From Octopus sinensis (taxonomy: Eukaryota), in assembly GCF_006345805.1 (NCBI RefSeq), contig NW_021834895.1, positions 1 to 44,741 of the forward strand: DNA of 44,741 bases, in the 5' to 3' direction. Position numbers: made by a program. Of this stretch, positions 3,001-39,000 are shown in pieces; the first letter of the stretch is position 1, and each line of letters opens with the position of its first letter.

Positions 3001-6000
3001 TGTGTGTGTGTGTGTGTGTGTGTGTGTGTGTGTGTGTGTGTGTATGTATGTATGTGTGTGTGTGTGTGCGTGTGTGTGTGTCAGAAATGGATAAAGAAAT
3101 TTACTTTCAGAATGACAAGATGACCATAATCAATGACTGATAAATTCATATAGACAAAGCGAATAAGGTAAAGCGACTAGATATTAAAGTCAAAGATTAT
3201 TATGTAAAGAAAACAAATGTGTTGTAATTGTTGTATCGGTTCCAGAAGACACCAAAAGAAATCTCTATGAGAAATAAAGAAAATATTCGAAAAGTAAGAT
3301 CTGAAAATAAGGATAATCAAAACGTGTGTATTGTAGGGTATAACAACAATACAAACAATCCTGGAGGATGAAATACGACTAGGCACTACAAATATACTAC
3401 AAGGAATACTTTTAATACAATAGGAAAAATTATAAATTGCATCTAATGAAAGCACACGGAATTCCATTCAGCTGTACAGAAAGTTACCATCTTCCTAAAT
3501 AGTTAGAGCGCCACTCTTAGCTTGAACATGCAAACATGTATTTATTGATTAATTCTGGCTTAATAATCGGTTAACAGTTTCGTTCTTTCAATGTATTCTA
3601 TTTTTCACCAATGAGAATCATTCTGTCATTTATCGCTGTGCTCCATGTTTTCATATAATTGTATATGTGTAATGTAGAAAACACAATACCTAAATTGCTA
3701 TCTATGTTTATTTCTTTTCCCCGCCGAAACATGATATACCAATATATAAAGTATGGCATTGATTTTCGATCATTCTCTCCGCAGGGAATCAGATTTCCAT
3801 TTAAAGAACATCATCATACCAAAAACGTTTTAGAAATGAATTCCCGAAAAGGGAGTAGAAATGTCTTAAGCCTGTCTTCTAAATAACATACGCTTATTGA
3901 TTTGGCACTACGCACTCAAATCAAGAATAAATGCGAAACTCTGAAAAAAATCACTCCACAGACACATATTTACATAGAAAATAAACAACCAAGTTAATAT
4001 TTATAATAAAACGGATAAATTTTTTTCTATATTTCTCTCAGTGAAATCTGGGAATAAATAATATTATATTCTGTTGGCTAGTCAAAGTTGCTGTAAGGTA
4101 AAAGGACTTCTCTGCTACTTTTTGTCGTTTTCTTGTTTTATTTTCTTTTCATCGAAAAATTGCATTACTCTAGAAATTTCAATATATTAATACTATTTGA
4201 AAACAGAGATGCTTCTGGGTAATTTGAAGAAATGAATGAATCAGACGACAATTTCTTGTCTTAGAATTACTGAGCGTAGATTTACGATGCACTCAAGTAC
4301 ACTGCTTAAAACTTTACAAATGTTCTATAGGTATGTGTCTGGAAGACGTCCAGATAATGTGATACAGTTATGAAAATGTATATACACATACAATATAAAT
4401 GTATATGTACCTGTATGTATGTATATATGTATGTACATTTGTTGCATACTTGTATGTAAGTATGAATATATATATATATATATATATATATATATATATA
4501 TATATATATACACGCACACATATATCATATATATACATATATATTGTACACACACATATGCACACACATATACACATGTGTGCTTGGGTGGGAGGCATTC
4601 ATTTGCACAGACGTGTGAATGTAATTTCCTTAAGTAGATACCAAACAGAGGTTTAAATAATAATGCTTGTTCGAATCTATAAGATGGCTAACTGGTAAAG
4701 ACTTCCAGCAACAACTACAAGATTCTCGCAACTGTGACGTTGTCTTCCAAGAAACAAGGAATAATAAGAATAAATGAAAGCTATTTGCTAAATAATGGCA
4801 ATGAGCTAACGATCTTAGTCTCTTCTAGAAGTCAGATGCCAAAGGAAACTACTTTGAAGCAGCTTATATTGCTTATAATTCTTACATATATTTAATAATC
4901 TCCATGCTGGTCAAATATCGGAGCTCCAACCAACGTATACGTCTAACTCTTAATATAAGTGGGATCGTAAAGGACATCAAGCTTAACGGAGAGTAGATTT
5001 TGATACTCTGCTGTCGGTCTTCTAAAGATTCACAATACAGATATAATGGACCTAAAAATATTTAAATGCTACGAATAAAAATCATGGCAATTTTGAGTGG
5101 CGTCTCTCGTACAGAGGCTGCAGATTTTAGGTGTTTGATAGAAAGGAGGGTATGAATTCAATCAATTGTTAACCCCAGTATTTGACCGGTAATATTATAT
5201 TGACCTTGGACGGGTGAAAGGCAGAGTAAGAAGTTGACATCACCGCTTTACCGATTTTGTTTGCTACAACCATTTTGTTCTCTGATGCTTTACCGATCCT
5301 ACAAATTTACTACCACTTTCTGTAGTAGTAAAGATTGTTTGCCAACATAACATGGCAGTCCTGGTTTAGGTCAGATGCTGCTGTAATTTAGCCCCTGGAG
5401 ACATCGACTCCAACTGGCCATACGACACGATATGTGTCTTTATATTTTCGAGCAAGGGAATCTAGCACCCCAACTCAGCTCAAAACTATCTGTGAATCAC
5501 GATTTCAGGATTATTTCTCTTCATCAGCACAGAATAATTGTTCAGCTAGAGGTGGCGCTGCCAAATTCCCGTTCAAAATAAATAGTTTTTAAAGTGACAA
5601 ATTATTTTCTAATTTATAGATCAGTGACTAGTTGTCACTTTGAAAAGTATATATTTCGAATGGGAATTTGGCAGCGCCACCTCTACCCGAACAATTATTC
5701 TGTGCTGATGAAGGGAAATAACCCGAAAATCGCGATAGACAGATATTGTTTTGAGCTGGGTGGGGTTGCTAGATTCCCTTGTTCGAAAATATAAGGAAAC
5801 AGATTGTGTCGTATAGCCAGCTGGAGATGATGTCTTCTGGGGCTAAATTACAGCAGCATCCGTCCTAAACCAGGACTGCCATGTTATATTGGCAAACAAT
5901 CTTTACTACAAAGTACTGTTGCTGAATATCTCACGTTGTGAGATTTAAAAATAAAAATAACACTTTCTGTAGTGTTGATATATGTAAACAGGGTTTATGG

Positions 6001-36000: not shown

Positions 36001-39000
36001 AAGTATTTCCCCGTTTGAAGATTTCGATAAAGAAATCAAAAGACGTCGCTATCACGTGGCAGATAAACTCGGAGATCAATGTTAAAGAGAAAGGCTCACA
36101 ACAGTTTGAAGAATACGCAATGTATGCGTAATTGGCAGCCATTAGAAACCATTCAAGTGTGGCAGAATCGGTTGCATGATGGAGGACAAACAGCTATGCG
36201 TCATACCATAGCCGAGCATCTGCAGCTAGAGTTTTAGCGATTTCTTTTTATGGGCCTCGTGCACCACATACATCAGTATATATATATATATATATATATA
36301 TATATTTATATTTATATATATATATATTATTATAATATATATATATATATATATATATATATATATACATACATACATTTATATATATATATATATCATA
36401 TATGCATGCATATGTATATAGATATGTATGCATGCATATGTTTGTGATTTCTTGCTTGTCCAAAACCTTAAACCTTTCCTCTTTTACATGTTAAAAAAAC
36501 TTATTGTATTTTGTGCTTTCCTTCAATAGAACGGAATAACTTGATAAAAATTCCACTTGTGTCAAAGAGTCGGTTCGCTAAGAATCTTACCAATGTTCGA
36601 TGTTGCAACTTAATGGGTTAATAACAAGAATCGACATTGCTAAATGGAGTTGAAATTGCAGTTTATTGGCTGCACAATACGCCATTTTGTTAATTCTAGA
36701 CTACTTTCATCTAAAGTTGTTGTTATTGTAGAAGCAGTAGTCGTAGCAGTTATTTTCGCAGTTGTTGTTGTTGTTATGGCTGTTGTTTTAGTTCAGTCTA
36801 AGGCCACCGTTGATCGAGCAGAAATATAATGAATCGCTTTCCAAACGTGACCACTCCGTCGTTGTGGATATCTTCCTCCTCTCAAGTTCTGTTCCGTGTT
36901 GTACAGCACATAATGTTGTTCTTGAGCGATTCCAGTTTTGTTCTACAAGAAGAAGTTGCTAGCCCCACCCCCGCTCCTACATCACTGAACACTTCACCGT
37001 TTCGTTTGAAAGGAACGCTGTGACTAGGATTCCACGATGTCTTTTTTACTTTGAAACTTCACTGATTTCAAGAGAGAGGGAGAGAGATGGAGAAGAGATA
37101 GAGAGTAGGAGAGAGATGGAGAAGAGATAGATAGAGGGAGAGAATGGGAGGGAGACGCAGAGAGAAAGAAAGAGCGGGAGAATGGACTCAACTTGGTTCT
37201 GGAAGAAATGAGAGCGGGTTTTGAACCCGAACCGTAGTGGGTCGGAACAAATACCGCGAAACTGTTATAATTGAGGCTCTACCGACCCATCTAAATCGCC
37301 GCCTTATGTATCTTTTATCTTTTGGCTTTTTCTTGTTCCAGTCATAAGACAGGACTGCGGCCATCCTGGGGCACCACCTTGAAGAATTATTAATCGAATG
37401 AATCGGCGCTAGTTCTTATTGCTTAACTCTGGTACTTATTCTATCAAATCTCTTTTTCCGAACCGCTAAGTTACGGGGACATAAACATACCAACACCGGT
37501 TCTCAAGGGGTGGTGGACAAACGCACACACTATATATATATACACACACACACAAATATATATACAATACACACACCACACATATATATATATAGATATA
37601 TATATATATATATATATAATTATATATATATATAATATATAAACAATTGCAGCGTGGAAGGTTTTGTAAGCCATTTAAGAAACACACAAAAGCCGTTCGA
37701 TTCACTTCAACATTTAAGTTTAATTTGTCAAATATTATCGTCGCTTTATAATCTCGACCTGTTCGCTGACAAAATCCAGCACGGATGTTTGTCAGTGAAC
37801 AGGTCGCGGTTTTAAAGCGACGAAAATATTTTGACAAATTAAACTTAAATGTTGAAGTGAATCGAACGGCTTTTGTGTGTTTCTTGAATGGCTTACAAAC
37901 ACCTTCCACGCTGCAATTGTTTTCGTTTCAGCACACGATCTCAGATCAAATCACTTGCTATGCAAGTACATCTCCGTAATATATATATATATACATACAT
38001 ACACACACATACACGATGATCTTTAGCTCCCGCCTACCAATTCCACTCGCAAGGCTTTGATCGCTCCAAAGTTATTGTAGAAAACAAATACCCAAGGTGT
38101 CAAGCGGTGAAACTGAACCCGGAACCATGTGGTTGATCCTAGTATATCTAGAACTACATTATAAATGAACCTTCTGAGTTCAAATTCCGCCGAGGTTGAC
38201 TTTGCCTTTCATCCTTTTGGGGTTGATAAATTAAGTACCGGTGTAATTCTGGGTCGATATAATCGACTATTGCCCTCCCCCAAAATTTCAAGCCCTGTGC
38301 CTATAATAGAAAGAATCATAAATGTGCCATCATTTTATTTAAGACGGTAAATTTTTGGATGGTATTAAATGCTAGTACTACGTGGTAAAGTAAACGTTTA
38401 GAAACTTTTTTCTTTCGGTTGAAATTTTAAAACTGATTGGCTGTGATGTTTTATGGTGGCTAGAAACTTTTACTTTTGAATTTTCTCCCAAGAGAAGATT
38501 GATAAAATGAAGAACATTATTGATGGAAACAATACTGTGAAAAAACTGAATTCACAAACAATTCTATATAAAACTTTTATACTGCGGAAATCAGTGATCA
38601 AAATACCATTACCTTTAGCAATGGAAACCAGTTTTATATACCAGTATATCTTTTGTCGAGGAATGTCATGTTTGAAACTGGTTTTCTTTGTTGAAATATG
38701 TCAAGTTTATTGAGGAAACGTGATTTGCAGAAAAATAACAATTCAATTTTTTTTCTTTTGGTAAATATTTGAGATAATTACAGAAATAACCATTTCGCAG
38801 TTCTGAGTTCAAATTCCTTGCAGGTAGACTTTGCCTTTCATCCTTTCCGGGTCGATAAGTACCAGCTGAACACTGGGGTCGATGTAATCGACTAGTCCCC
38901 TTCCTCCAGAAATTCTGGCTTTGTGCTAATAGTAGAAAAGATAATTGTTTGTTGGCTCGTATCTCTGATACATGTGGCAATAAAATTTGATGTCTGGAAA

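What the first reader, a model, noticed from the sequence alone, without database searches (positions are those of the whole stretch)
5325..37978. Recurrent 'inverted arm + arm + 50-85 nt one-sided tail' architecture in unrelated sequences
Seen: three insertions (5325-5960, 21520-21757, 37641-37978), and perhaps a mirrored fourth (about 20765-21502), share no evident sequence similarity. They do share geometry: diverging arms, usually a short spacer, and one arm extending 50-85 nt further. Two contain hammerheads and two sit in (TA)n. Inference: one mechanism acting on many families of small ribozyme-processed RNAs, such as PLE-type priming followed by fold-back or second-strand synthesis starting at a fixed distance from the 3' end. 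This would be a PLE-dependent non-autonomous system abundant enough to occur 3-4 times in 45 kb. It is my best candidate for an undescribed system here.
Basis: partly seen in the sequence, partly recalled or inferred. Interest (0 to 1): 0.8.

Follow-up and report, generated by a model that had tools for sequence, protein, structure and literature searches.

The report
Penelope-like retroelement hairpin insertions with tails
Four short hairpin-shaped insertions with a one-sided tail are real, but they carry the published footprint of Penelope-like retrotransposon integration, so they are probably new examples of a known process and not a new system.

Summary
The geometry is real. Four unrelated insertions (E1 5327-5960, E2 21520-21757, E3 37641-37978, E4 about 20734-21500, mirrored) each consist of two head-to-head inverted arms (87-94% identical, BLAST E 4e-53 or lower). 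The spacers are 31, 16, 5 and 307 nt. One arm carries an extra tail of 51, about 69, 56 and about 120 nt.

The tail belongs to the insertion. A 13-bp target duplication encloses E1 arms plus tail. An uninterrupted paralogous repeat shows the empty site for E3.

Three of the four sit in or next to (TA)n. A decayed autonomous Penelope-like element (PLE: RT plus C-terminal GIY-YIG) lies at 514-2606, also between (TA)n runs.

E1 and E3 carry minimal type-I hammerhead-like motifs on the strand that puts the tail 3'. No Rfam model reports either one, and E3 has G3/C8 in place of C3/G8.

An inverted 5'-truncated copy, a one-sided tail, a (TA)n bias and hammerheads are the published PLE signature (Craig 2021; Frangieh 2024). 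Whether these are non-autonomous families or extreme 5' truncations could not be tested, because no eukaryotic DNA collection was available.

The parts
5314..5326 (.). E1 target-site duplication, left copy (13 bp)
   Evidence: Perfect 13-bp direct repeat with 5961-5973. 1 of 1000 shuffles reaches 13 or more.
5325..5600 (-). E1 inverted arm (antisense copy)
   Evidence: 88% identical to the reverse complement of 5632-5909.
5601..5631 (.). E1 spacer (31 nt)
   Evidence: Read. The palindrome continues 11 nt beyond the local alignment on each side.
5632..5909 (+). E1 sense arm
   Evidence: Its orientation is set by the hammerhead-like motif.
5698..5743 (+). E1 hammerhead-like motif, right-arm copy. 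Core CUGAUGA 5705-5711, extra nt 5712, helix II 5713-5715/5722-5724, GAAA 5725-5728, palindrome AUCGCGAU 5729-5736.
   Evidence: The first helix I pair is mismatched. There is no Rfam match.
5489..5534 (-). E1 hammerhead-like motif, left-arm copy (core at 5527 on the minus strand)
   Evidence: It is the only hit of the relaxed descriptor in the window. 3 of 200 shuffles give one hit. Helix II has an A.C mismatch.
5910..5960 (+). E1 tail (51 nt): a 7-bp stem-loop and an A-rich end
   Evidence: Lies inside the TSD. Fold (z -2.0, not decisive).
5961..5973 (.). E1 target-site duplication, right copy
20734..20853 (-). E4 tail (outer limit uncertain: 20734 to 20765)
   Evidence: Sequence between the degenerate microsatellite and the arm. 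It has no counterpart beyond the other arm.
20854..21024 (-). E4 arm next to the tail
   Evidence: 90% identical to the reverse complement of 21332-21500.
21025..21331 (.). E4 spacer (307 nt, includes a GTAT-type microsatellite)
   Evidence: Which arm it belongs to is unknown.
21332..21500 (+). E4 arm without a tail (11 nt, then (AT)5)
21520..21593 (-). E2 inverted arm
   Evidence: 87%.
21610..21688 (+). E2 arm next to the tail
21689..21757 (+). E2 tail (about 69 nt), followed by (TA)n
37641..37777 (-). E3 inverted arm
   Evidence: 94% identical to the other arm.
37783..37922 (+). E3 sense arm
37788..37838 (+). E3 hammerhead-like three-way junction. Helix I 37788-37794/37832-37838, core GUGAACA 37795-37801 (G3, C8), extra nt 37802, helix II 37803-37807/37817-37821, GAAA 37822-37825, loop AUAU, predicted cut after 37831.
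   Evidence: It is the only hit in the window with a core within 2 mismatches of CUGANGA. 0 of 200 shuffles give a hit with core CUGANGA or GUGANCA. The MFE fold shows helices I and II, z -3.4. There is no Rfam match.
37923..37978 (+). E3 tail (56 nt), followed by (TA)n
   Evidence: No match in the paralogous empty site.
27885..28256 (+). Uninterrupted paralog of the repeat that E3 interrupts (serves as the empty site)
   Evidence: E3 left flank 37332-37594 aligns to 27885-28133. E3 right flank 37993-38135 aligns to 28115-28256.
514..2606 (+). Decayed, 5'-truncated autonomous PLE between (TA)n runs. RT fragment 1135-1695, GIY-YIG endonuclease 2121-2402.
   Evidence: RVT_1 E 1.7e-8; GIY-YIG E 0.0035, below Pfam's cut-off. 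3598 relatives at E<=0.001. 16 of the 28 longest listed relatives have a GIY-YIG C-terminal to the RT. Best PDB match is telomerase RT, E 0.026.

Best explanation
E1-E4 are integration products of Penelope-like element (PLE) machinery.

Proposed mechanism: a short RNA is reverse-transcribed at a staggered break in AT-rich or (TA)n DNA. That RNA is either a minimal 3' module of a PLE (hammerhead region, RT entry site and tail) or a non-autonomous RNA carrying such a module. Two cDNA copies end up head-to-head, with their 5' ends at the centre and their 3' ends outward. One copy starts at the distal RT start site and so includes the tail. The other starts at the proximal site, or ends there, and so has no tail.

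Shown here:
- the anatomy of the four elements;
- that the tail is part of the insertion (E1, E3);
- the (TA)n targets;
- a PLE in the same window;
- hammerhead-like motifs oriented with the tail 3'.

Inferred from the literature: target-primed synthesis on both strands and two RT start sites.

My own inference: the small spacers in 3 of 4 elements (5, 16 and 31 nt on units of about 150-345 nt) suggest that the two copies are coupled. Coupling could occur by a template switch or a fold-back at the 5' end of the first cDNA. Two independent, randomly truncated copies would not give such small spacers.
For: - Head-to-head arms with one-sided tails in 4 of 4 elements.
- E1: a 13-bp TSD encloses arms plus tail. 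This length suits staggered-nick retrotransposition.
- E3: the paralogous empty site shows arms plus tail inserted as one unit into a microsatellite.
- E2 and E3 have (TA)n on both sides and E4 is next to (AT)5. Perfect (TA)>=6 runs cover only 3.2% of the window.
- An RT plus C-terminal GIY-YIG element at 514-2606 also lies between (TA)n runs.
- Hammerhead-like motifs occur in E1 and E3 only, both on the strand that puts the tail 3'.
- In E3 the arm ends 91 nt after the predicted cut site. In the anole PLE the RT start is 85-92 nt after the cut site (my subtraction from PMC11167929).
- Published signature: inverted 5'-truncated copy, one-sided tail and (TA)n bias (PMC8557442); both strands extended, with the tail lying between two RT start sites (PMC11167929).
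Against: - None of E1-E4 resembles the 3' end of the only PLE in the window, or each other.
- No second copy of any of them occurs in the window, so repeat-family status is unproven.
- The tails are 51 to about 120 nt, longer than the 30-40 bp in print.
- Rfam hammerhead models report nothing in any of the four, even at E<=10.
- My descriptors were written after I had seen the motifs.
- E2 and E4 have no hammerhead-like motif.
- E1 is not in (TA)n, and its A-rich 3' end with a 13-bp TSD would also fit LINE-type insertion.
- The E4 spacer of 307 nt could mean two separate insertions.
- Tail stem-loops are not better than shuffles (z -2.0, +0.5, -1.5, -1.0).
Confidence: 0.7

Rival explanations
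1. They are palindromic MITEs or fold-back DNA transposons, for example Tc1/mariner-type elements that target TA, and the tails are unrelated sequence.
For: - The hairpin shape, the short length and the TA-rich targets fit.
- A mariner-like terminal sequence occurs at 41398 next to (TA)n. I recognised it as mariner-like from memory. only shows that it is unique in the window.
Against: - The tail lies inside the insertion in E1 (TSD) and in E3 (empty site), so the inverted repeats are not terminal on one side.
- No duplication directly flanks the E1 palindrome. 13 bp is outside the TSD range I recall for TIR superfamilies.
- The four elements share no terminal motif.
- The hammerhead-like motifs would be left unexplained.
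Confidence: 0.08
2. They are SINE-like RNAs inserted by a LINE (APE-type target-primed reverse transcription), with 5' inversion or duplication by twin priming.
For: - E1 has a 13-bp TSD and an A-rich 3' end.
- An APE+RT LINE with a 683-codon open frame covering its RT lies at 14136-18755.
Against: - This LINE's copies end in (TATC)n, not in A-rich or tail-like sequence.
- E2 and E3 have no A-rich or microsatellite 3' end of their own.
- From my recall, twin priming gives an inverted 5' segment and not a full mirrored duplicate.
- It would not explain the (TA)n targeting or the hammerhead-like motifs.
Confidence: 0.1
3. They are DNA-level palindromes formed by fold-back repair at breaks in fragile (TA)n tracts.
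For: (TA)n tracts are prone to form cruciforms (my recall), and three elements lie in or beside them.
Against: - Fold-back repair duplicates local flank, whereas the E3 arms are foreign to the interrupted repeat.
- E1 has a TSD.
- The arms are 87-94% identical and carry indels, so they are old insertions and not assembly artefacts.
Confidence: 0.03

Closest known systems
Penelope-like element insertions with an adjacent inverted 5'-truncated copy and a one-sided 'tail' (Craig et al. 2021, PMC8557442; Frangieh et al. 2024, PMC11167929)
   Same: Head-to-head inverted copy, an extension at one end only, a (TA)n or AT-rich target, hammerheads in some clades and none in others, and a variable TSD that is hard to see in microsatellites.
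   Different: - The units here are only about 150-345 nt and have no ORF.
- The arms are nearly equal in 3 of 4 elements.
- The tails are 51 to about 120 nt, against 30-40 bp in print.
- No similarity to the one autonomous PLE in the window.
Dual min-hammerheads on opposite strands, 100-700 bp apart, ascribed to truncated PLEs (Cervera & de la Pena 2014, PMC4209133)
   Same: The E1 motif copies lie 178 bp apart on opposite strands (cores at 5527 minus and 5705 plus). They are type-I motifs with an extra nucleotide before 10.1, a G10.1-C11.1 pair and a palindromic loop 3.
   Different: - That paper, in the passages I read, does not describe the tail or the arm geometry.
- E3 carries G3/C8. Only C3-G8 and U3-A8 are named as natural in the passages I read.
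Animal non-LTR retrozymes (Cervera & de la Pena 2020, PMC7229834; Li et al. 2026 preprint, abstract only)
   Same: Short, AT-rich, non-coding elements with type-I hammerheads that are linked to PLEs, with TSDs longer than 4 bp.
   Different: Retrozymes are direct tandem repeats that give circular RNAs. These elements are inverted dimers with no direct tandem.
Non-autonomous Chlamys elements such as MRC1 (PMC8557442)
   Same: Short elements mobilised by PLEs that share only their 3' ends with autonomous partners.
   Different: They are described with pLTRs and head-to-tail arrays, not as hairpins with a tail.

Membership tests
PLE integration product | Inverted 5'-truncated copy directly abutting the element, head-to-head | tested here: met
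   4 of 4 elements.
PLE integration product | [quoted passage not shown] | tested here: met
   Present in 4 of 4. Shown to lie inside the insertion for E1 and E3. The lengths, 51 to about 120 nt, exceed the published 30-40 bp.
PLE integration product | Insertion bias for (TA)n or AT-rich DNA | tested here: met
   E2 and E3 have (TA)n on both sides and E4 lies beside (AT)5. E1 is not in (TA)n.
PLE integration product | 3' end shared with an autonomous PLE (RT + GIY-YIG) of the same genome | tested here: not met
   Tested only against the one PLE in the window (514-2606); scores lie within the shuffle range. The rest of the genome was not available.
Autonomous PLE (for 514-2606) | Telomerase-like RT followed by a GIY-YIG endonuclease on one strand | tested here: met
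   - RVT_1 E 1.7e-8; GIY-YIG E 0.0035, below Pfam's cut-off.
- 47% identity over the GIY-YIG core with an RT+GIY-YIG protein.
- 16 of 28 long relatives carry a C-terminal GIY-YIG.
- The reading frame is broken by stops and shifts.
Hammerhead ribozyme, type I (PLE min-HHR) | Match to the Rfam hammerhead covariance models | tested here: not met
   No hammerhead row at gathering score or at E<=10 in 5300-5980, 20740-21765 and 37635-37985.
Hammerhead ribozyme, type I (PLE min-HHR) | Conserved core CUGANGA ... GAAA with helices I and II and an NUH cleavage site | tested here: inconclusive
   - E1: the core is present in both arm copies, but each copy has another defect.
- E3: the fold is complete, but the core has G3 and C8.
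- E2 and E4: no motif found.
Hammerhead ribozyme, type I (PLE min-HHR) | Self-cleavage | not testable with these tools
   Needs in vitro transcription, as monomer and as dimer.
Non-LTR retrozyme | Direct tandem repeats of a hammerhead-bearing monomer | tested here: not met
   No direct repeat involving E1-E4, and no tandem array there apart from microsatellites.
MITE (TIR transposon derivative) | Inverted repeats at both termini, flanked directly by a fixed-length TSD | tested here: not met
   The tail separates one arm from the target in E1 and E3. No duplication directly flanks the E1 arms.

The most novel reading that the evidence does not exclude
Minimal PLE 3' modules (hammerhead region, RT entry site and tail; about 150-350 nt) form many unrelated non-autonomous families in this genome. 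They integrate obligatorily as near-symmetric hairpin dimers with one tail of 50-70 nt. This would imply a coupled fold-back or template-switch step that has not been worked out for PLEs. One such family uses a natural G3-C8 covariant of the hammerhead core. I found that pair in print only as an engineered variant. Such insertions would also seed long perfect hairpins, and so double-stranded RNA, wherever they are transcribed.
Probability: 0.15. Interest if true: 0.55.

Novelty: new member of a known kind. Interest (0 to 1): 0.3.

Why it matters
That shows the signature can be recognised without an ORF. It could therefore be used to annotate short PLE-derived insertions that repeat pipelines may call MITEs or leave unknown.

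Three points here bear on how PLE integration works:
- The arms are nearly equal in short units.
- The arm ends about 90 nt after the predicted hammerhead cut in E3.
- The inner arm ends do not match the cut sites.

These points fit the in vitro picture of uncleaved RNA templates and internal RT start sites. The G3/C8 hammerhead-like core in E3 is a small, testable curiosity. None of this changes the known picture.

Tried and rejected
- Rfam at gathering score over the window gave 0 matches.
- Rfam at E<=10 over the window gave 258 rows, of which 150 were shown. All shown rows were microsatellite or hairpin look-alikes of miRNA, snoRNA and sRNA families.
- The three regional Rfam scans gave only hairpin look-alikes (17, 25 and 11 rows). 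I read these as artefacts of the hairpin shape.
- My first strict hammerhead descriptor found nothing.
- I looked for similarity among the tails and to the PLE 3' end, and found none.
- I looked for further copies in the window with word size 7. Only microsatellite and chance-level short matches came up.
- Folding the tails gave no structure clearly better than shuffles.
- A word-based protein search with the endonuclease fragment found nothing. The one with the RT fragment found a single protein.
- The other inverted pairs were examined and set aside:
  - 27875-28134/28810-29079 and 28123-28275/28470-28625 are two opposed copies of a SINE-like repeat with microsatellites.
  - 39888-39969 and 41584-41652 are small hairpins that do not abut (TA)n and show no evident one-sided tail.
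- Two cephalopod repeat papers were searched for passages. They list Penelope elements but say nothing on this architecture. I did not establish the organism of the window.
- Not used: genome contigs, which holds prokaryotes only.
- Closed: viral contigs and metagenome contigs.
- No supplementary files were opened. Figures S1-S2 of PMC11167929 and the supplementary figures of PMC4209133 may bear on tail length and core variants.

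
Full report
**What is in the sequence.** The window is AT-rich and full of microsatellites. A self-comparison at E<=1e-5 lists 14 inverted pairs. A fourth is a near pair, 20854-21024 / 21332-21500.

Refined by alignment, the four elements are:

| Element | Arms | Arm identity | Spacer | Tail |
|---|---|---|---|---|
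| E1 | 5325-5600 / 5632-5909 | 88% | 31 nt | 5910-5960 (51 nt) |
| E2 | 21520-21593 / 21610-21688 | 87% | 16 nt | 21689 to about 21757 (about 69 nt) |
| E3 | 37641-37777 / 37783-37922 | 94% | 5 nt | 37923-37978 (56 nt) |
| E4 | 20854-21024 / 21332-21500 | 90% | 307 nt | left side, from about 20734 (limit uncertain) to 20853 |

In E1-E3 the arm without a tail abuts the target directly. In E4, 11 nt lie beyond it. The arms differ by substitutions and indels. They are therefore old duplications and not assembly artefacts.

- E1: a perfect 13-bp direct repeat (5314-5326 and 5961-5973) encloses arms plus tail. Only 1 of 1000 shuffles of the two flanks gives a match of 13 or more, and nothing is duplicated directly at the two arm ends.
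- E3: it interrupts the internal (CA)n(TA)n of a two-part SINE-like repeat. Its left flank (37332-37594) aligns to 27885-28133 of an uninterrupted copy. Its right flank (37993-38135) aligns to 28115-28256 of that same copy. Neither the E3 arm nor its tail finds anything there. Arms plus tail therefore went in as one piece.
- E2: the only evidence is that (TA)n lies on both sides of arms plus tail.
- E4: it ends 11 nt from the same (AT)5 run that E2 abuts.

**Unrelated sequences.** The 3' regions of E1-E4 and of the PLE described below give 10 pairwise local scores, all within the shuffle range. The largest z is 1.8, with 10 of 200 shuffles as good. A sensitive search found no other copy of any of the four in the window. 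"No evident similarity" is therefore confirmed, but so is the fact that repeat-family status cannot be shown from this window.

**Hammerheads.** Rfam reports no hammerhead at gathering score. It reports none at E<=10 in the three regions that cover all four elements either. The rows there are hairpin look-alikes.

By motif, CUGANGA occurs 21 times on both strands of the window, and only two of these lie in the elements. Both are in E1: one at 5705 on the plus strand and one at 5527 on the minus strand, which are the two arm copies of one motif.
- The right-arm copy has the core, one extra nucleotide, a GGG/CCC helix II, GAAA and the palindrome AUCGCGAU. Its first helix I pair is mismatched.
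- The left-arm copy has a 6-bp helix I and an AUU cleavage triplet, but a mismatch in helix II.
- A relaxed descriptor, written after I had seen the motif, hits only the left-arm copy. It gives one hit in 3 of 200 dinucleotide shuffles of the whole window.

A more general descriptor allowed any 7-nt core. It required helix II of at least 4 bp, GAAA, a U-H site and helix I of at least 5 bp. It finds 21 distinct sites, against a shuffle mean of 10.6. Only one has a core within two mismatches of CUGANGA, and it lies in the E3 right arm at 37788-37838. This E3 motif has:
- a 7-bp helix I and a 5-bp helix II with G10.1-C11.1;
- an extra nucleotide before 10.1;
- GAAA and the loop AUAU;
- the core GUGAACA, that is G at position 3 and C at position 8.

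No hit with core CUGANGA or GUGANCA arose in 200 shuffles. The MFE fold shows helices I and II, with z -3.4. The left-arm copy also has G3 and C8, plus further changes, so the swap predates the divergence of the arms.

Positions 3 and 8 pair in the active ribozyme. The passages I read name natural U3-A8 covariants (PMC3088659; PMC4209133). They name G3/C8 only as an engineered, partly active double mutant (PMC11167929; PMC3884650).

"Two contain hammerheads" is therefore right at the level of motifs, but unconfirmed by covariance models and by any assay. In both E1 and E3 the motif lies on the strand for which the tail is 3'.

**A PLE in the same window.** Positions 514-2606 on the plus strand lie between (AT)n 445-513 and (TA)n from 2621. 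The segment holds an RT fragment (RVT_1, E 1.7e-8) and, downstream, a GIY-YIG domain with two cysteines inside the core. The GIY-YIG match has E 0.0035, below Pfam's cut-off. The frame is broken by stops and shifts.
- The RT fragment has 3598 relatives at E<=0.001 among 1.84 billion representatives.
- Of the 150 listed relatives I scanned the 28 that are 755 aa or longer. All 28 have RVT_1, and 16 of 28 have a GIY-YIG C-terminal to it at E<=0.001.
- The best solved structure is telomerase RT, a weak match at E 0.026.

This is the architecture of a canonical endonuclease-bearing Penelope-like element.

**Comparison with what is known.** Craig et al. 2021 (PMC8557442, passages) describe PLE insertions as follows:
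- they are highly 5'-truncated;
- they carry a 30-40 bp "tail" that is often present at one end only;
- they show a strong bias to microsatellites, (TA)n for Naiads, so that TSDs cannot be discerned.

Frangieh et al. 2024 (PMC11167929, main text read) show the following in vitro:
- a PLE protein cleaves and extends both target strands;
- reverse transcription starts at two internal sites, and the sequence between them is the tail;
- hammerhead cleavage is not needed, and uncleaved RNA is the main template;
- the RT start lies 111-118 nt into the ORF and the hammerhead cut at +26.

Cervera & de la Pena 2014 (PMC4209133, passages) list the traits of PLE hammerheads: an extra nucleotide between 9 and 10.1, the G10.1-C11.1 pair and a palindromic loop 3. 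They also noted dual motifs 100-700 bp apart on opposite strands, which they took for truncated PLEs.

The four elements here match this picture feature by feature. In E3 the arm ends 91 nt after the predicted cut site, which is close to the 85-92 nt of the anole element. In E1 the distance is 172 nt.

The inner ends of the arms lie about 49 nt (E3) and about 106 nt (E1) upstream of the predicted cut sites. The copied RNAs were therefore not ribozyme-processed at their 5' ends.

**Differences from the published picture.**
- The units are very short, about 150-345 nt, and have no ORF.
- Three of the four have almost equal arms.
- The tails are longer than 30-40 bp.

If the two copies were truncated independently, spacers of 5, 16 and 31 nt on such units would be unlikely. 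I infer a coupled step, either a template switch or a fold-back at the 5' end of the first cDNA. Alternatively, the template RNAs are short with defined 5' ends. This is an inference and is not shown.

**Rivals.**
- MITEs are contradicted by the non-terminal position of one inverted repeat and by the E1 TSD.
- LINE-mediated insertion fits only E1's A-rich end and TSD. The window's LINE (14136-18755, APE+RT) ends in (TATC)n.
- Fold-back repair at (TA)n is contradicted by the foreign origin of the E3 arms.
- Retrozymes are direct tandems, and none is present here.

**Left open.**
- Whether these are non-autonomous families or extreme 5' truncations of autonomous PLEs.
- Whether offsets are constant within families.
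- Whether either hammerhead-like motif cleaves.

No supplementary files were opened. The organism was not determined.

**Verdict.** The PLE interpretation is supported, but it describes a published signature. These are new members of a known kind, with one small curiosity in the G3/C8 core.

Noticed in passing
window 14136-18755 (+); truncated copies 7040-8476 and 12204-13461: A LINE with an APE endonuclease (Exo_endo_phos) and an RT (RVT_1, zf-RVT). The RT lies in a 683-codon open frame. Two 5'-truncated copies share its 3' end, and both are followed by (TATC)n arrays.
   Followed up: partly
window 27875-28280 (+), 28470-29079 (-), 37332-38135 (+, interrupted by E3); partial copies at 35332-35623 and 44209-44440: A SINE-like repeat in two halves joined by an internal (CA)n/(TA)n or (TATC)n microsatellite. 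Two opposed copies make the inverted pairs at 27875-29079.
   Followed up: partly
window 37795-37801 and the left-arm counterpart (minus strand, within 37716-37776): The hammerhead-like core has G at position 3 and C at position 8 in both arm copies of E3. In the papers I searched, this pair appears only as an engineered variant.
   Followed up: partly
window 41398-41419: Directly after a (TA)n run lies a sequence that looks to me, from memory, like a mariner-type terminal repeat. It occurs once in the window with up to 3 mismatches allowed, so no second end was found. A 69-nt hairpin lies 185 nt downstream at 41584-41652.
   Followed up: partly
window 39888-39969 and 40020-40040: An 82-nt hairpin (77% complementary), with a third partial copy of its arm about 50 nt downstream. 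It does not abut (TA)n.
   Followed up: no
window 207-444: A 238-nt unique segment lies between two (TA)n runs, directly upstream of the PLE. It could be another insertion into the same microsatellite. It has no similarity to the PLE apart from a CA-repeat match.
   Followed up: no
window 9170-9617 and 31377-31795; 9981-10116 and 34701-34857: Two further dispersed repeat pairs, one direct at 85% and one inverted at 78%. Neither was identified.
   Followed up: no
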